A stretch of DNA of 32,000 nt, from NCBI RefSeq assembly GCF_000008465.1, contig NC_006512.1, positions 2,610,001 through 2,642,000 on the forward strand. Reading direction: 5' to 3'. The notes under the pieces were generated by a model that had not been told where the DNA came from, ran no database searches, and worked only from the letters and a program-made list of their open reading frames with translations. Of the stretch, positions 22,658 through 30,357 are shown in pieces. The position numbers and the translations under genes were made by a program. Position 1 is the first letter of the stretch; every line of letters starts with the position of its first letter. This stretch comes from Idiomarina loihiensis L2TR. GTDB taxonomy: Bacteria > Pseudomonadota > Gammaproteobacteria > Enterobacterales > Alteromonadaceae.

Positions 22658-24400
22658 TTACATTTTCTCCAGAGTTGGAATGCCCAGCAATTCCAGACCT
22701 TGCTTCAGCACATTAGCCGTTAACATCGACAATTTCAGGCGGCTGTTACGAAGCGCTTCGTCTTCCTGGTTCAAAATTGGGCAGGCTTCGTAAAAACTGG
22801 AGAAGCGACCGGCCAAATCAAACAGAAAACCACATAAGAAATGCGGCATCGCTTTATCCTGAACCTGATGCAGTACTTCGTTAAAACGGACCAACTGATT
22901 CGCTAGCGCCAGCTCGCGCTCATCACTCAGAATAATATCTGCGTTACGGTCAAAGGCGGTGTCGCCTAAACGGTCAAAAATACTGTTCACGCGGGTGAAA
23001 GCATAAAGCAGGTAAGGTGCAGTGTTGCCTTCAAAAGTCAGCATGTGGTTCCAGTCGAAAACGTAGTCGCTGGTACGGTTTTTCGATAAGTCCGCGTATT
23101 TAACTGAGCTAATACCCACTACTTCAGCAACTCGTTTCTGCTGCTCTTCGCTAAGGTCGGTAGTTTTTTGCTGCAATAGTTCCAGCGCACGGCGTTCGGC
23201 TTCATCCAGTAAGTCAGCCAGCTTGGTTACGCCGCCGTCACGACTTTTATAAGGTTTACCGTCTTTGCCCATTACTGTACCAAAACCGTAATGGTTCAGC
23301 TGTATATCGCCTTCCACAAAACCGGCTTTGCGCGCCAGCGTAAAAATTTGGTCAAAATGCAGTGCCTGACGGGCATCCACAAAGTACATCAAATGGTCGC
23401 CGCCCAGTTCTTTCTGACGGTACTCAATGGCGGCTAAGTCGGTAGTGGCATAAAGATAACCCCCACCTTTTTTCTGCACAATAATTGGCAGCGGCTCGCC
23501 TTCTTTGCCTTTGTATTCTTCAAGGAACACACATTGTGCCCCCTGATCTTCCGTCAACAGGCCTTTTTCTCGCAGGTGCTCAATAACACCCGGTAACTTG
23601 TCGTTGTAGGCGCTTTCAGCCATCACATCGTCACGAGTCAGTTTAACGCCTAAACGGTCGTAAACGTCCTGACAATGGCTCAATGACACATCAATAAACT
23701 GGTTCCACAGCTTCAGGCAGTATTCGTCGCCCGACTGCAGTTTTACGACTAGCTGACGTGCACGGTCAGCAAACTCTTCGCTTTCGTCAAAACGTTGCTT
23801 GGCGGCTTTATAGAAAGTCTCCAGGTTGCTCAGCTCATATTCAGCAGACTGATTATCCAGCGCTTCCATGTACGCTAAGAGCATGCCGAACTGCGTGCCC
23901 CAGTCGCCCACGTGGTTCTGGCGAATCACTTTGTGCCCTAAAAATTCACACACACGGGACACGGCATCGCCAATAATGGCTGAACGTAAATGGCCTACGT
24001 GCATTTCTTTGGCCAGGTTAGGCGACGAGTAGTCAATAACAATGGTTTTGCTTTCTTCTGCCACATCCACGTTCAGGCTGTCGCTGTTAAGCATTGCGGT
24101 TAGCTGGTCTTTCAGCTGGTCCTGCGAAATGGTGAAGTTAATAAAGCCGGGACCCGCAATGTCCATTTTTGACAGTAAAGAGTTTTCCGGAACCGCGGCA
24201 ACAATGGCTTCTGCCAACTGACGCGGATTCGATTTCGCAGGCTTTGCCAGCATTAATGCCAGGTTTGTCGCAAAGTCACCGTGAGACTTATCGCGGGGTC
24301 GGTCCAACTGAATGTTTACTGAATGATCCGCCGGAATTGTGCCCTGTGCTTTAAGTTGACCAATGGCTTCGGCCAGTAACTGTTCAAGTTGTTCTTTCAT
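22658..24400 (-). CDS. argS: Arginine--tRNA ligase
   Basis: 580-aa class-I aaRS with a HIGH-type motif ([14 protein letters not shown]) and ArgRS similarity along its length. Confidence 0.97.
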
Positions 24401-26703: not shown

Positions 26704-26870
26704 GGCTCTATTCTGGAACGCTACCGCGCAGAATACAAGGCAGCAGATTCTACTTGATCACAGGCTCAGGATCACATAAAATGCGCGGCTCTTAATTCAT
26801 TGATGTTTTTTTGCGCATGGTGTTCGGCTTTGGATCGAATGGCGATGCGGCCCATAACTGAGGTAACCCC

Positions 26871-27330: not shown

Positions 27331-28575
27331 ATGACAGATTTTCGCCAACAGGCACTGGATTACCACGAATACCCGACCCCGGGTAAAATTTCGGTTGAAC
27401 TCACCACTCCCGCAGAAACCAGCAAAGATTTAGCTTTGGCCTACAGTCCGGGCGTCGCAGAGCCGGTTAGGGAAATTGCTCAGGACCCGGACGCGGCTTA
27501 CCGTTATACGGCCAAAGGCAATATGGTTGCGGTTATTACTAACGGAACTGCCATTCTTGGCTTAGGAAACCTGGGACCGCTGGCATCAAAACCGGTCATG
27601 GAAGGTAAAGCTCTTCTATTTAAACGCTTCGCCGGACTCGACTCTATTGATATTGAAGTGAATCATCGTACTACTCAGGACTTTATCAATACCGTTGCTA
27701 ACATTGCCGATACCTTTGGTGGTATTAACTTAGAAGACATTAAAGCCCCTGAGTGCTTTGAAATTGAACAAGCCTTAATAGAGCGCTGCAATGTACCGGT
27801 ATTCCATGATGATCAGCACGGTACTGCCATTGTGACGGCCGCCGGTATGCTGAATGCGTTAGAAATTCAGGGTAAAAACCTGGCAGAATCTCGCATTGTT
27901 TGCCTTGGTGCCGGTGCTGCCGCCATTGCCTGTATGGAGCTTTTAATTAAATGTGGCGCACAACGCGAGCACATTTATATGCTCGACTCAAAAGGCGTTA
28001 TTCACACCCGTCGCGATGACTTAAACGAATACAAACAGCTGTTTGCCAACAATACTGACAAACGTACGCTAAAAGACGTTATTGAAGGTGCCGATATCTT
28101 TGTTGGGGTTTCAGGACCAAACTTACTCAGCGCAGAAGAGCTAAAACTTATGGCACCTAACCCGGTTCTGTTTGCCTGCTCTAACCCAGACCCGGAGATT
28201 AAGCCGGAAACCGCTATGGCCGCACGTGATGACCTGATTATGGGCACCGGACGCTCAGACTACCCGAACCAGGTGAACAACGTTTTATGCTTCCCGTTTA
28301 TGTTCCGCGGTGCATTAGATGTGCGTGCTACTGCGATTAACGACGAAATGAAAGTTGCAGCAGTGGAAGCTATTCGTCAGCTGGCGAAAGAGCCAGTGCC
28401 GGAATCGGTATTGAAAGCGGCCGGTGTCAAAGAATTAACCTTCGGCCGTGATTATATTATTCCTAAGCCAATTGACCCGCGCTTGTGTCCACGCGTATCG
28501 CGCGCCGTTGCCGAAGCCGCGGTGAAGTCCGGCGCAGCTAAAATCGATTTACCAAAAAATTATATGCAGGATTAA
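27331..28575 (+). CDS. NAD(P)-dependent malic enzyme, short form (no C-terminal phosphotransacetylase-like domain)
   Basis: 414-aa ORF with [33 protein letters not shown] and GAGAAAIA motifs of MaeB-type malic enzymes. Confidence 0.9.
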
Positions 28576-28596
28576 TCACGTAGCCTGACATTTATG

Positions 28597-28812
28597 TCAG
28601 GTGAGGTGCCATTCCTGACGTGAACGTCATATATGGTCCCCTCCCGTTTTGCAACGGCAACTCGTGGTAAATGTCGGGGCGCTCGCATATATACGGCCTG
28701 TTTATGGTGCGCGCTTTGCGCACCTGGCCTGGATGAACTCCGCACGACAACTGGCTTATCAGGCTAACGTACTTTATGTACGGACGTTCAACAGTCTCAG
28801 TTGTCGTCGGTT
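28597..28812 (-). ncRNA. Candidate recombinase-associated guide RNA (bridge RNA / seekRNA-like) encoded in the 3' arm of the IS
   Basis: An extended -10 promoter lies just upstream. The region contains consecutive stem/internal-loop/hairpin modules (28744-28807; 28695-28729), hairpins at 28644-28657 and 28616-28629, and segments identical to the insertion site in unpaired positions. The only ORF here is a TTG-start 70-aa ORF on the opposite strand. Structure was judged by eye only, and the ends are approximate. Confidence 0.45.
28633..28645. repeat. Subterminal inverted repeat copy 1, ATGGTCCCCTCCC (inside the 3' arm, 36 nt from the element end)
   Basis: It is the perfect reverse complement of 29993-30005. 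Confidence 0.9.
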
Positions 28813-28818
28813 TACCCT

Positions 28819-28845
28819 ATTTTACCATCCTGTTGACGTTTGCAA
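28819..28845 (-). promoter_or_regulatory. Candidate sigma-70 extended -10 promoter inside the IS 3' arm
   Basis: The minus strand reads TTGCAA (28845-28840), 15 nt, TGGTAAAAT (28827-19; TGn + TAAAAT). The predicted start near 28812 is just 5' of the first long stem. Confidence 0.35.
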
Positions 28846-28891
28846 CTCCCGGAAGGAATGAACCTTCGCTGTGCTCTTTTACTGAATGCTG

Positions 28892-29923
28892 TTAAGCAGC
28901 AGTCATCCGGTAATCTTCTTTATTCTTTAACATCGCCCAGATTATCCGGGCGTGCTTGTTAGCCAGTGCCACCGCTGCAACGTTGTTGCCTCTGCGTTTA
29001 GCGACATCCTGTGCCCAGAGGCTCAGCCTGTCGTGGCGCTGTTGTGCCACCCGCAGTGCCGAGCGGGCGCCATGCACCAGCAGTGTCCTGAGTTTGGTGT
29101 TCCCTTTTTTGGTAATACCGCCTAAACGGTCTTTACCGCCACTGCTGTTTTGCCGTGGTACCAGTCCCAGGTATTCCGACAGGTTGCGGCCGCGTTTAAA
29201 TTCACTCACATCACCTATCAGTGCCAGCAGCGAGGTCGCTGTTATCGGTCCGATACCCGGCAGGGTCATCAGCCGCTGACTGTCTTCATTCCTTTCGGCC
29301 TGTGTCGCTAAGTGCTTATCCAGCGCTTTAACTTCTTCATCCACCGCTCGCAGCATCTGATAGAGCCGGTTGATGAGGTCCCGTGACTGAAGCGTCAGCG
29401 CATTGCTGTCGTCTTCCAGTACCTCCGGTACTCTCTGTAATATCGTACCGACTCGCTTCGGTAAAAGAATGCCGTATTCGGCCAGTTGCCCCCGCAACCT
29501 ATTCGAGAACTGCGTTCTCGTCTGCACGAAGCCTTCCCGCTGATTGACCATCAATGCTAAGTCCTGCTGCTCAATGCTTTTCAGCCTGACCGTCTGACGG
29601 TTGGGTCGTGATGCCGCCTCGGCTATTGCCCGGGCGTCATTCGCATCGTTCTTCTCACCCTGCAGGTACGCTTTGACGAAACGCGGTGGCAACGCCACCG
29701 TTTTATAACCCAGCTTTTCACATTCGCGGCGCCAGTAATGACTCATGCCGCAGGACTCAACCGCTACTTCACAGTCATCCGTACGGCTCAGCGTCGCCAG
29801 CTTCGCTAACACTTTATTGCTGCGCAGTTTTTTATTAAAAACTTCCTGCTCATTTTCATCCAGCGCCAAAACCTGAATAAAATCCTTTGCCAAATCCAGG
29901 GCAATTCTGTTTACAATAGCCAT
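28892..29923 (-). CDS. IS110-family transposase/recombinase (N-terminal DEDD RuvC-like domain plus C-terminal Tnp domain)
   Basis: 343-aa ORF. DEDD-type motifs are IALDLAKD, VAVESCG and KNDANDARAIAEA. The C-terminal domain has LPGIGPITATSLLALIGD (HhH) and VPRQNSSGGKDRLGGITKKGN with the conserved Ser. An SD (GGAGAGG) lies 5 nt upstream of the ATG. Confidence 0.95.
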   Translation of the reverse strand: MAIVNRIALDLAKDFIQVLALDENEQEVFNKKLRSNKVLAKLATLSRTDDCEVAVESCGMSHYWRRECEKLGYKTVALPPRFVKAYLQGEKNDANDARAIAEAASRPNRQTVRLKSIEQQDLALMVNQREGFVQTRTQFSNRLRGQLAEYGILLPKRVGTILQRVPEVLEDDSNALTLQSRDLINRLYQMLRAVDEEVKALDKHLATQAERNEDSQRLMTLPGIGPITATSLLALIGDVSEFKRGRNLSEYLGLVPRQNSSGGKDRLGGITKKGNTKLRTLLVHGARSALRVAQQRHDRLSLWAQDVAKRRGNNVAAVALANKHARIIWAMLKNKEDYRMTAA

Positions 29924-29992
29924 TGGTCCTCTCCACTCCGTTCTATAGAATCTTCGAAACTCTATATTGGCACATTGCGATGCCGCTTAGGA

Positions 29993-30005
29993 GGGAGGGG
30001 ACCAT
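29993..30005. repeat. Subterminal inverted repeat copy 2, GGGAGGGGACCAT (4 nt from the 5'-arm end of the element)
   Basis: It is the perfect reverse complement of 28633-28645. Confidence 0.9.
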
Positions 30006-30033
30006 CTCATCAGGCTACGGCCACACGCACTGT

Positions 30034-30357
30034 TTAATCGTCCAACTCTTCATCGGTTGGAATAGGTAATCCCCGGGCTTCCAGCTCTTCGCGCACAGCT
30101 TTGGGGATTTTATTCGGGTTGGATTTTTGCAAGTCTTCATCTTCCGGCAGCGGCTGACCGGTAAAAGCGTGTAAAAACGCCTCACACAATAGTTCGCTGT
30201 TGGTAGCATGGCGCAGATTATTAATTTGGCGACGGGTTCGTTCATCGGTCAGTACTTTTAACACGCGCGTGGGTATTGAGACCGTAACTTTTTTCACCTG
30301 CTGACTCTTACGACCGTGTTCAGCATAAGGGTAAATATATTCGCCGTTCCATTTCAT
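30034..30357 (-). CDS. metJ: Methionine repressor MetJ
   Basis: From [29 protein letters not shown]...[26 protein letters not shown] the ORF is near-identical in pattern to E. coli MetJ. I trimmed the ORF-track TTG start (30429) to the homologous ATG at 30357. Confidence 0.93.

What the first reader, a model, noticed from the sequence alone, without database searches (positions are those of the whole stretch)
28597..28891. Long structured non-coding arm 3' of an IS110-family recombinase: candidate programmable guide RNA (bridge RNA / seekRNA type)
**Seen in sequence:**
- The recombinase gene (28892-29923, minus strand) leaves 86 nt of non-coding DNA on its 5' side and 295 nt on its 3' side.
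- The 3' arm has no credible ORF.
- Read on the recombinase strand, it starts with an extended -10 promoter (TGGTAAAAT, 28827-28819).
- Directly after that comes (i) a perfect 10-bp stem (28798-28807 / 28744-28753). It encloses a large asymmetric internal loop capped by an imperfect hairpin (28766-28788).
- Next is (ii) a GGCC/GGCC clamp (28726-28729 / 28695-28698). It encloses a 7-nt/1-nt internal loop and a 7-bp GC-rich hairpin (28706-28712 / 28718-28724).
- Then come (iii) a CCGTT/AACGG hairpin (28644-28657) and (iv) a TGACG/CGTCA hairpin (28616-28629).

**Established knowledge:** IS110-family DEDD recombinases use an element-encoded structured RNA of about 150-250 nt. Its two internal loops base-pair with the target and with the element's own ends. 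In IS1111-type members this RNA lies downstream of the recombinase gene.

**Inference:** This arm encodes such an RNA, with module (i) as the target-binding loop. If so, it is a self-contained RNA-guided DNA recombination system sitting in an otherwise housekeeping region.
Basis: partly seen in the sequence, partly recalled or inferred. Interest (0 to 1): 0.85.

Follow-up and report, generated by a model that had tools for sequence, protein, structure and literature searches.

The report
IS1111-type insertion sequence guide RNA
The non-coding stretch after this transposase gene encodes the guide ("bridge" or "seek") RNA of an IS1111-type insertion sequence sitting in a repeat of the Idiomarina loihiensis chromosome; this is a clear but ordinary new example of a system first described in 2024.

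Summary
Window 28630-30010 (minus strand) is a 1381-bp IS1111-group insertion sequence. It has a 343-aa DEDD recombinase, perfect 13-bp subterminal inverted repeats and a 262-nt 3' non-coding arm. It lies in a REP palindrome between metJ and a malic-enzyme gene of Idiomarina loihiensis, and sister strains show the empty site.

The arm (about 28628-28829) folds into a conserved structure with heavy compensatory variation. A covariance model built from it finds a full-length match 3' of the recombinase gene in most of about 80 distant IS1111 elements. It also matches IS4321 and ISEc11, whose seekRNA was validated experimentally.

Four single-stranded segments match the left target flank, the right target flank, the IS right end and the IS left end. 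Each co-varies with its DNA partner across relatives (0 of 5000 permutations).

- Hairpin (iv) and the last 33 nt lie outside the element; they are the REP target.
- Hairpin (iii) carries the -35 box of the promoter formed when the element circularises.
- The "extended -10" is one strand of a covarying RNA stem, not a supported promoter.
- The donor-binding bases flank the GGCC clamp rather than lying in its internal loop.

Verdict: real, a new member of a known kind, moderate interest.

The parts
28630..30010 (-). Complete IS1111-type insertion sequence, 1381 bp. The shared core dinucleotide TG lies just outside each end, at 30011-30012 and 28628-28629.
   Evidence: Empty site in sister strains L126 and L129 reads GGCCGTAGCC-TG-ACGTTCACGTCAGG. 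Copies at other sites share exactly these ends.
28892..29923 (-). DEDD recombinase/transposase gene, 343 aa.
   Evidence: PF01548 (8e-20) and PF02371 (1.8e-26). D10, E56, D93, D96 and the G253-P256-S261-G262 motif are invariant in alignment A1. 40% identical to TnpPa11.
29993..30005 (-). Left subterminal inverted repeat ATGGTCCCCTCCC. The left extension ATGAG (30006-30010) precedes it.
   Evidence: 13 nt, 100% complementary to 28633-28645. Conserved in all copies.
28633..28645 (-). Right subterminal inverted repeat GGGAGGGGACCAT. The 3-nt right extension ATA (28630-28632) follows it.
28628..28829 (-). Bridge/seekRNA region as delimited by covariance model R1. The last 2 nt are the core and the last ~35 nt are the IS right end.
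   Evidence: R1 gives 239 bits here and it is the only hit in the window. R1 finds full-length homologues 3' of tnp in most of ~80 distant IS1111 loci, and in IS4321 and ISEc11.
28821..28827 (-). Outer stem, 5' strand UGGUAAA.
   Evidence: RNAalifold consensus. Helices 1-3 are 73-89% paired, with 3-20 double changes per pair.
28798..28807 (-). Stem P1, 5' strand ACGACAACUG. It pairs with 28744-28753 and closes the target-binding loop.
   Evidence: Perfect 10 bp. Helix 6 is 90% paired, with 24-44 double changes per pair in seven of its eight pairs (the eighth: 11 double changes, 52 unpaired).
28783..28790 (-). Right target guide, UGAACGUC, on the 5' strand of the target-binding loop. It is complementary to the top strand G+ACGTTCA of the target (28621-28628).
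   Evidence: Sequence. It changes with the right flank in relatives. Permutation test 0/5000.
28759..28766 (-). Left target guide, UAGCCUGA, on the 3' strand of the target-binding loop. It is identical to the target top strand TAGCC-TG-A, so it pairs with the bottom strand. The next bases, UAAG, resemble the IS left end (ATGAG).
   Evidence: The guide reads GCCUG / GGUCG / GCUUG / ACUUG in step with the left flank in Idiomarina copies. 0/5000.
28769..28781 (-). Apical hairpin of the target arm, GUAC-AUAAA-GUAC.
   Evidence: Helix 10 is 88% paired, with 41-47 double changes at two pairs.
28732..28737 (-). Donor guide for the IS left end, UUCAUC. It is complementary to the top strand G+ATGAG (30006-30011), with 5 Watson-Crick pairs and 1 G-U pair.
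   Evidence: Sequence. Family-wide co-variation with the left extension: ATGGG/CCCAU, ATGGA/UCCAU, ATGAA/UUCAU (0/5000).
28695..28729 (-). Clamp arm: GGCC/GGCC stem enclosing the hairpin GGUGCGC/GCGCACC.
   Evidence: Helix 12 is 100% paired (CG to AU in 25 sequences). Helix 13 is 93% paired, with 24-38 double changes per pair in four of its five pairs (the fifth: 5).
28686..28692 (-). Donor guide for the IS right end, AUAUAUG. It is identical to the right-end top strand ATATA+TG (28628-28634).
   Evidence: The variable positions match the right end in 66/66, 66/66 and 62/66 family members. UG becomes CG together with the junction core in L006, L009 and L015.
28649..28654 (-). TTGCAA, the -35 hexamer of the promoter created when the ends are joined in the circular form (TTGCAA-17 nt-TATGAT).
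   Evidence: the window junction scores 4/6 + 5/6 with a 17-nt spacer. 48 of 57 family members give a sigma-70-like junction promoter.
28574..28629 (-). Host REP pair, which is the target and not part of the element.
   Evidence: The uninterrupted REP pair is seen in L123, L126, L128, L129 and L132; it is absent in L124, L125, L127 and L131.

Best explanation
Window 28630-30010 (minus strand) is an intact IS1111-group insertion sequence of Idiomarina loihiensis. Its 3' non-coding arm encodes a bridge RNA / long seekRNA of about 200 nt that programmes its DEDD recombinase.

**RNA architecture (shown by covariation).** The RNA forms a three-way junction with three elements:
- An outer stem.
- A target-binding arm: stem P1, a large internal loop and an apical hairpin.
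- A GGCC-clamped hairpin arm.

**Guide segments (shown by sequence and co-variation).**
- The 5' strand of the target loop (UGAACGUC) is complementary to the top strand of the right half of the target, GACGTTCA.
- The 3' strand of the target loop (UAGCCUGA) pairs with the bottom strand of the left half, TAGCC-TG-A.
- The two strands flanking the clamp arm match the element's own ends. UUCAUC matches the left end G-ATGAG, and AUAUAUG matches the right end ATATA-TG.
- All the guides meet at the shared core TG.

**Mechanism (inferred from ISEc11, ISPa11 and IS621 experiments, not shown here).**
1. The RNA is cut out of a tnp read-through transcript. That transcript would be driven by the junction promoter TTGCAA-17-TATGAT formed in the excised circle. 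In the integrated copy it may instead come from read-through of metJ, whose stop codon lies 23 nt upstream on the same strand.
2. The RNA binds the recombinase.
3. It aligns the circle junction with a REP of sequence GTAGCC-TG-ACGTTCA.
4. It directs strand exchange at the core, inserting the element in one orientation without a duplication.
For: **Family features**
- DEDD and PF02371 domains.
- 13-bp subterminal repeats.
- 7-nt (TG+ATGAG) left and 3-nt right extensions, with no duplication against empty sites.
- A long 3' arm.

**RNA structure**
- Fold z = -3.9.
- 11 pairs have compensatory changes among 16 close relatives aligned with MAFFT.
- On 80 family members, 82.6% of cells are paired and the covariation score is 0.466. 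The score is at most 0.061 for slid partners, and 0 of 500 shuffles reach the observed value.
- Many G-U pairs make the signal strand-specific.

**Homology to validated seekRNA regions**
- Model R1 hits the 3' arm of ISEc11 (42 bits, E = 3.5e-12) and of IS4321 (63 bits).
- In the ISEc11 match, the columns I call target guides hold GUGAAAAUA and CAGUAUUUU. These are the two matches to the published ISEc11 target GTGAAAATACTG (PMC11187229).

**Guide-DNA co-variation**
- Idiomarina variants with 83-100% identical recombinases carry different guides that match their own flanks.
- The core switches from TG to CG at once in both loops and both junctions in L006, L009 and L015.
- Family-wide permutation tests for all four guides give 0/5000.

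**Order of the matches**
- The top-strand match lies 5' of the bottom-strand match, as reported for IS1111 seekRNAs.

**Mobility**
- The insertion is present in some I. loihiensis strains and absent in others.
- The same element occurs at other REP sites.
Against: - There is no transcript, binding or transposition data for this element.
- No Rfam family matched, so the homology rests on a model built here.
- The alignment used for the large covariation count was fitted to that model. The MAFFT-only alignment agrees.
- The stem that would close the donor loop (GUUC/GAGC) is poorly supported, at 53% paired. The donor strands therefore lie in a multi-loop whose geometry is uncertain.
- The left-end donor guide is short: 6 nt including one G-U pair.
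- The first core base is not covered by either 5'-strand guide.
Confidence: 0.9

Rival explanations
1. Same guide RNA, but made as an independent small transcript from an internal extended -10 promoter (TGGTAAAAT, 28819-28827) starting near 28812.
For: - The string TGnTAAAAT is present.
- A TTGCAA hexamer lies 15 nt upstream (read directly).
- Some IS110-family elements have their own sRNA promoters (PMC12288879).
Against: - The promoter scan found no site in 28500-30150 on either strand. The 15-nt spacer lies outside the usual 16-18 nt.
- The motif loses the critical final T in the 83%-identity clade (TGGTAAACA) and becomes TGGCAAGAC in the wider family.
- The same bases form the 5' strand of an outer stem that covaries (helices 1-3). 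A start at 28812 would remove that strand.
- For ISEc11 no internal promoter was found, and the RNA is thought to be processed from the junction-promoter transcript (PMC11187229).
Confidence: 0.12
2. The conserved 3' arm acts only as DNA. It would provide recombinase-binding sites at the right end plus the -35 box of the junction promoter, with no functional RNA.
For: - The last ~35 nt do carry DNA-level signals: the subterminal repeat and the -35 hexamer.
- Hairpin (iii) is only 68% paired.
Against: - DNA-binding sites do not explain stems whose sequence is completely replaced while pairing is kept. P1 is one example: ACGACAACUG/CAGUUGUCGU in the window against GCGUUUACA/UGUAAACGC in L033.
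- They do not explain the many G-U pairs.
- They do not explain loop strands that track the host flank.
- In ISEc11 the homologous region works in trans as RNA (PMC11187229).
Confidence: 0.03
3. The arm is a regulatory 3' UTR of the recombinase mRNA, such as a terminator, stability element or antisense target, and its similarity to the flanks arises because the element carries fragments of the REP it inserts into.
For: - The element sits in a REP, and the REP is palindromic, so short matches could be captured sequence.
- A conserved hairpin follows the stop codon (28852-28867).
Against: - No terminator-like site lies in the arm.
- The matches are in register with the insertion point and cover both strands of the target and both IS ends.
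- They change in concert with flank, ends and core in dozens of lineages whose targets are not REPs of this type.
Confidence: 0.03

Closest known systems
ISEc11 and its seekRNA (IS1111 group; Siddiquee et al. 2024, PMC11187229)
   Same: - Recombinase of about 340 aa, subterminal inverted repeats, 7-nt left and 3-nt right extensions, and no duplication.
- A 3' arm that matches the same covariance model over its full length.
- The top-strand match lies 5' of the bottom-strand match in a stem-closed loop.
- A junction promoter forms on circularisation.
   Different: - The window recombinase was not compared with TnpEc11; the closest measured reference is TnpPa11, at 40% identity.
- The target differs: an Idiomarina REP, GTAGCCTGACGTTCA, against GTGAAAATACTG.
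- Nothing has been tested experimentally here.
ISPa11 (IS1111 group, REP-targeting, seekRNA co-purified with its transposase; PMC11187229; also analysed by Durrant et al. 2024)
   Same: - It inserts at a fixed position in a host REP palindrome.
- Its recombinase is 40% identical to the window protein over the full length.
- A 67%-identical ISPa11 relative (L139) matches model R1 at 56 bits.
   Different: - Different host and different REP sequence.
- ISPa11 DNA itself was not available in the collections I could search, so only a relative was tested.
IS621 bridge RNA (IS110 group; Durrant et al. 2024, PMC11208160; Hiraizumi et al. 2024, PMC11208158)
   Same: - One RNA carries separate target-binding and donor-binding guides that meet at a shared core dinucleotide.
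- It works with a DEDD recombinase and a circular intermediate.
- The target is a REP.
   Different: - The RNA lies 3' of the gene rather than 5'.
- The order of top-strand and bottom-strand guides is reversed.
- The element has long (13-bp) subterminal repeats.
- The donor-binding bases sit in a multi-loop flanking a clamp arm rather than in a simple internal loop. Durrant et al. noted this for many IS1111 members.
IS4321 / IS5075 (founding IS1111-group elements with subterminal repeats; Partridge & Hall 2003)
   Same: - Same end architecture.
- The 3' arm matches model R1 over its full length at 62.8 bits.
   Different: - They target the terminal repeats of Tn21-family transposons on plasmids.
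- Recombinase identity is 35%.

Membership tests
IS1111 group of the IS110 family | DEDD (RuvC-like) N-terminal domain plus PF02371 C-terminal domain; protein of 330-350 aa | tested here: met
   PF01548 at 8e-20 and PF02371 at 1.8e-26; 343 aa.
IS1111 group of the IS110 family | GL-P----S(t)G motif in the C-terminal domain | tested here: met
   GLVPRQNSSG at residues 253-262 (translation). G253, P256, S261 and G262 are invariant in A1. The motif definition comes from PMC11187229.
IS1111 group of the IS110 family | Subterminal inverted repeats of 7-17 bp | tested here: met
   13 bp, 100% complementary, at 28633-28645 / 29993-30005.
IS1111 group of the IS110 family | Ends extend 7 nt (left) and 3 nt (right) beyond the repeats; insertion without target duplication | tested here: met
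   The occupied site reads GTAGCC-TGATGAG[IR...IR]ATA-TGACG. The empty site reads GTAGCC-TGACG.
IS1111 group of the IS110 family | The longer non-coding region lies downstream of the recombinase gene | tested here: met
   262 nt on the 3' side against 87 nt on the 5' side, within the ends defined.
seekRNA / bridge RNA of IS1111 elements | Sequence-and-structure homology to an RNA region shown experimentally to be required (ISEc11 non-coding region) | tested here: met
   Model R1, built from this element and close relatives, hits L138:1793-1995. That is ISEc11 bases 1242-1444, overlapping the essential 1170-1374 region and the complementing 1127-1397 fragment. Score 42.4 bits, E = 3.5e-12.
seekRNA / bridge RNA of IS1111 elements | A 5' segment complementary to the target top strand and a 3' segment complementary to the bottom strand, overlapping in the target at the insertion point | tested here: met
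   UGAACGUC pairs with GACGTTCA, and UAGCCUGA equals TAGCCTGA. They overlap at GA at the insertion point. The order matches.
seekRNA / bridge RNA of IS1111 elements | Guide bases change together with the target in related elements (natural reprogramming) | tested here: met
   Idiomarina variants. Family permutation tests give 0/5000 for both target guides.
seekRNA / bridge RNA of IS1111 elements | Donor-binding bases matching both element ends and the core | tested here: met
   AUAUAUG equals the right end plus core. Its variable positions agree in 62-66 of 66 members. UUCAUC is complementary to G+ATGAG, and it co-varies with the left extension at 0/5000.
seekRNA / bridge RNA of IS1111 elements | Conserved secondary structure supported by compensatory changes | tested here: met
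seekRNA / bridge RNA of IS1111 elements | The RNA is made, binds the recombinase, and is required for excision and insertion | not testable with these tools
   No expression or biochemical data are available. This needs RNA-seq, co-purification and plasmid assays.
seekRNA / bridge RNA of IS1111 elements | Match to a curated RNA family model | tested here: inconclusive
   Nothing relevant in Rfam 15 at the gathering threshold or at E <= 10. I could not establish whether Rfam holds a model for IS1111-type bridge RNAs.

The most novel reading that the evidence does not exclude
A single RNA architecture of about 200 nt, a three-way junction, may serve essentially the whole IS1111 group, from Idiomarina to ISEc11 and IS4321. 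All four guide strands would then be readable from sequence.

The Idiomarina elements would form a natural reprogramming series. Their recombinases are 83-100% identical, they have at least four different left-target guides, and they show a simultaneous TG-to-CG core switch in both loops.

In most family members the second 'core' base is A at the left junction but G at the right junction and in the guides. That A completes the -10 box (TAYAAT) of the junction promoter. This would mean the effective core is a single base, or that a G-T wobble is tolerated at that position. Either would be a mechanistic difference from IS621.
Probability: 0.35. Interest if true: 0.5.

Novelty: new member of a known kind. 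Interest (0 to 1): 0.35.

Why it matters
RNA-guided DEDD recombinases are being developed as tools that insert DNA without double-strand breaks. This element adds a compact, apparently active example: a 343-aa protein with an RNA of about 200 nt.

Its target and donor guides can be read directly. Close natural variants are already retargeted to different REP sequences and to a different core, which gives a ready-made set for testing the programmability rules of the less-studied IS1111 branch.

For genome annotation, it shows that the 'intergenic' 262 nt after such transposase genes should be annotated as a functional RNA. It also shows that the adjacent hairpin belongs to the host REP.

It does not reveal a new kind of system.

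Tried and rejected
- **Rfam.** A scan of the window at gathering thresholds, and of 28400-30200 at E <= 10, gave only the L31 leader and noise.
- **Close DNA relatives.** Megablast against E. coli genomes found nothing. blastn against plasmids gave only short recombinase fragments. The element is not in those collections.
- **Internal promoter.** The consensus scan found none in the linear copy.
- **Small ORFs in the arm.** The 52-70 aa ORFs listed run across the IS end into host DNA or lie on the opposite strand, so I rejected them as genes.
- **Second subterminal-repeat-like match.** The match at window 23393-23405 (ATGGTCGCCGCCC, 2 mismatches) has no partner and no R1 hit, so I treated it as chance.
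- **Further target sites.** A search of the window for more copies of the 14-nt target found only the adjacent partner REP and chance-level matches.
- **ISfinder name.** No Idiomarina entry appears in the supplements of the two 2024 papers. Whether the element has an ISfinder name remains unknown.
- **ISPa11 DNA.** It was not in the plasmid collection, so only a 67%-identical relative could be tested.
Full report
**What is in the sequence**

The ORF at 28892-29923 (minus strand, 343 aa) carries both Pfam domains of IS110-family recombinases: PF01548 at 8e-20 and PF02371 at 1.8e-26. The 262 nt after the stop codon fold to -88.3 kcal/mol. Shuffles average -69.3 ± 4.8, giving z = -3.9, and none of 200 shuffles folds as well. 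Rfam 15 has nothing relevant here, either at gathering thresholds or at E <= 10.

**Host and exact limits of the element**

The neighbouring proteins L31, a 414-aa malic enzyme and MetJ are identical to Idiomarina loihiensis proteins AAV83294, AAV83295 and AAV83297. Looking up the MetJ protein returned ten related chromosomes.
- One of them, I. loihiensis GSL 199 (L130), has the same insertion.
- L126 and L129 have the uninterrupted site...GGCCGTAGCC-TG-ACGTTCACGTCAGGAATGG....
- The window reads GTAGCC-TG-[ATGAG...1381 bp...CCATATA]-TG-ACGTTCACG.

The element is therefore 28630-30010, with TG present at both junctions and no other duplication. Perfect 13-bp inverted repeats lie 5 nt (7 nt counting the shared TG) inside the left end and 3 nt inside the right end: 29993-30005 and 28633-28645. 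The target is one arm of a REP-like palindrome (GTAGCCTGACGTTCACGTCAGG) that forms an inverted pair with a second REP at 28574-28596. Some strains carry zero, one or two such REP-pair units at this spot.

Two consequences follow.

**Relatives**
- The identical recombinase occurs on other short contigs with a different left flank (L001).
- Proteins 81-88% identical occur in several Idiomarina genomes and marine metagenomes at many different sites.
- All of these copies share the same ends and lie in REP-like palindromes.
- A protein-profile scan of metagenome contigs added 80 loci, 79 of them with recombinases only 40-50% identical.

**Conserved RNA structure**

Sixteen distinct 3' arms were aligned with MAFFT (A2). 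They give an RNAalifold consensus of 49 pairs, 11 of which have compensatory double changes. The structure has these elements:
- An outer stem, UGGUAAA...GGG paired with CCC...UUUACCA.
- A large internal loop, closed distally by a 2-bp CU/AG helix and capped by a hairpin.
- A GGCC/GGCC clamp carrying a GC-rich hairpin.

I built covariance model R1 from A2. R1 found one hit in the window (28628-28829, minus strand, 239 bits). It found matches 3' of the recombinase gene in all but three of the 80 metagenome loci, full-length in nearly all, with E between 1e-67 and 4e-3.

Pair counts on the resulting 80-sequence alignment:

| Measure | Result |
|---|---|
| Cells paired | 82.6% (64.3% for shuffles) |
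| Covariation score | 0.466 (at most 0.061 when partners are slid by 1-3 columns) |
| Shuffles reaching the observed value | 0 of 500 |
| P1 | 90% paired, 24-44 double changes per pair in seven of its eight pairs |
| GGCC clamp | 100% paired |
| Clamp-arm hairpin | 93% paired |
| Apical hairpin of the target arm | 88% paired |
| CU/AG helix | 96% paired, UA and CG in 40 and 35 sequences |
| Outer stem | 73-89% paired |

That alignment is fitted to the model, which inflates pairing. However, the MAFFT-only result and the wholesale replacement of stem sequences seen by eye say the same. Frequent G-U pairs make the signal specific to the recombinase strand.

Two helices are weak. GUUC/GAGC, which would close a donor loop, is 53% paired.

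**Link to validated RNAs**

R1 matches the 3' arm of several known elements:
- IS4321: 62.8 bits.
- An ISPa11 relative: 56.5 bits.
- ISEc11: L138:1793-1995, 42.4 bits, E = 3.5e-12.

In L138, ISEc11 spans 552-1994 and is flanked by GTGAA | AATACTG, the published target. The R1 hit therefore falls in the non-coding region whose deletion abolishes circle formation and which works in trans as RNA (PMC11187229).

In that alignment, the columns corresponding to the window's loop strands hold CAGUAUUUU and GUGAAAAUA. [quoted passage not shown] My assignment of the target guides thus coincides with the experimentally mapped ones. The order, top-strand match 5' of bottom-strand match, is the one reported for IS1111-type seekRNAs.

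**Guides in the window**

| Guide | RNA bases (window coordinates) | DNA partner |
|---|---|---|
| Right target guide | UGAACGUC (28783-28790) | Complement of G+ACGTTCA, immediately right of the insertion point |
| Left target guide | UAGCCUGA (28759-28766) | Equals TAGCC-TG-A on the left; continues UAAG, resembling the IS left end ATGAG |
| Right-end donor guide | AUAUAUG (28686-28692), flanking the clamp arm | Equals the right end ATATA+TG |
| Left-end donor guide | UUCAUC (28732-28737), flanking the clamp arm | Complementary to G+ATGAG of the left end (one G-U pair) |

Durrant et al. noted that in many IS1111 members the donor-binding bases sit in a multi-loop rather than a simple internal loop. 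That matches the picture here.

**Co-variation of guides with DNA**

Among Idiomarina copies, the left-guide bases read GCCUG, GGUCG, GCUUG or ACUUG where the left flank reads GCCTG, GGTCG, GCTTG or ACTTG. Two one-base exceptions occur, in L011 and L013.

The right guide also tracks its flank:
- UUGAACGUC with GACGTTCA.
- GUGAAUGUC with GACATTCA.
- CAAGGCGC with GCGCCTT.
- GAUAGCCUC with GATGCTAT.

In L006, L009 and L015 the core is CG at both junctions, and both loops carry CG instead of UG.

Across the wider family, each guide matches its own flank or end better than permuted ones:

| Guide | Observed | Permuted (mean ± sd) | Permutations reaching observed |
|---|---|---|---|
| Left target guide (longest exact match) | 5.24 | 2.63 ± 0.12 | 0/5000 |
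| Right target guide (longest exact match) | 4.97 | 2.71 ± 0.11 | 0/5000 |
| Right-end donor guide (matches out of 7) | 6.86 | 5.66 ± 0.09 | 0/5000 |
| Left-end donor guide (longest exact match) | 5.35 | 4.51 ± 0.14 | 0/5000 |

For the right-end donor guide, the variable positions agree in 66/66, 66/66 and 62/66 sequences.

**How the RNA is made**

No sigma-70-like site exists in the linear copy. I therefore consider an RNA start at about 28812 unlikely.

Joining the right end to the left end creates TTGCAA-17 nt-TATGAT. The same construction gives a sigma-70-like promoter in 48 of 57 family members, with -10 boxes that are mostly TACAAT or TATAAT. This is the junction promoter described for ISEc11.

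By analogy with ISEc11, the RNA would be processed from a read-through transcript of the recombinase gene. This is inferred, not shown. In the integrated copy, metJ ends 23 nt upstream on the same strand, so read-through from metJ is a possible source. That too is inference.

**Verdict**

The system is of a kind described in 2024 (PMC11187229, PMC11208160). Durrant et al. predicted bridge RNAs in 93% of catalogued IS1111 elements. This is a new member of a known kind, useful mainly as a well-resolved example with natural retargeted variants.

Noticed in passing
window 28649-28654 plus the 28630/30010 junction: Joining the IS right end to its left end creates a sigma-70-like promoter, TTGCAA-17 nt-TATGAT. 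The same holds for 48 of 57 related elements. The -10 box spans the junction.
   Followed up: yes
L033-L122, left and right junctions: In most distant family members the second base of the 'core' is A at the left junction (YA-ATGGR) but G at the right junction and in the RNA guides (YG). The A completes the -10 box (TAYAAT) of the junction promoter. In the window both junctions read TG.
   Followed up: partly
window 28574-28629 and loci L123-L132: The metJ / malic-enzyme intergenic region is polymorphic for REP-pair units. Some strains have none (the two genes overlap by 4 nt), others one (76 nt) or two (160 nt). The REP pair itself therefore looks mobile or unstable.
   Followed up: partly
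window 28852-28867 (minus strand): A conserved hairpin, GAAGG-UUCAUU-CCUUC, lies 24 nt after the recombinase stop codon and upstream of the modelled RNA. Relatives show loop and stem variation (for example GAAGGUCUGUCGACCUUC in L004). It may be a processing or stability element.
   Followed up: no
window 28849-28862 and 29285-29298: The post-stop hairpin region is 93% complementary over 14 nt to a segment inside the recombinase gene. This may be chance or a long-range mRNA interaction.
   Followed up: no
window 30034-30357 (minus strand): metJ ends 23 nt upstream of the IS left end on the same strand. The insertion splits the REP that follows metJ, so read-through from metJ could drive the recombinase and the RNA in the integrated copy.
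   Followed up: no
L019 (Idiomarina piscisalsi) and L008: L019 has CG at the right junction, while both RNA loops and the left junction have TG, so the core is mismatched at one junction. L008 has a 1-nt deletion in the left-end donor guide (UUCAU-CAGG).
   Followed up: no
window 26814-26864 (plus strand): An Rfam L31-Gammaproteobacteria ribosomal-protein leader (54.8 bits) lies upstream of rpmE. This is an expected housekeeping element.
   Followed up: no
window 23393-23405 (plus strand): ATGGTCGCCGCCC resembles the subterminal repeat with 2 mismatches. It has no partner repeat and no RNA-model hit, so I judged it chance.
   Followed up: partly
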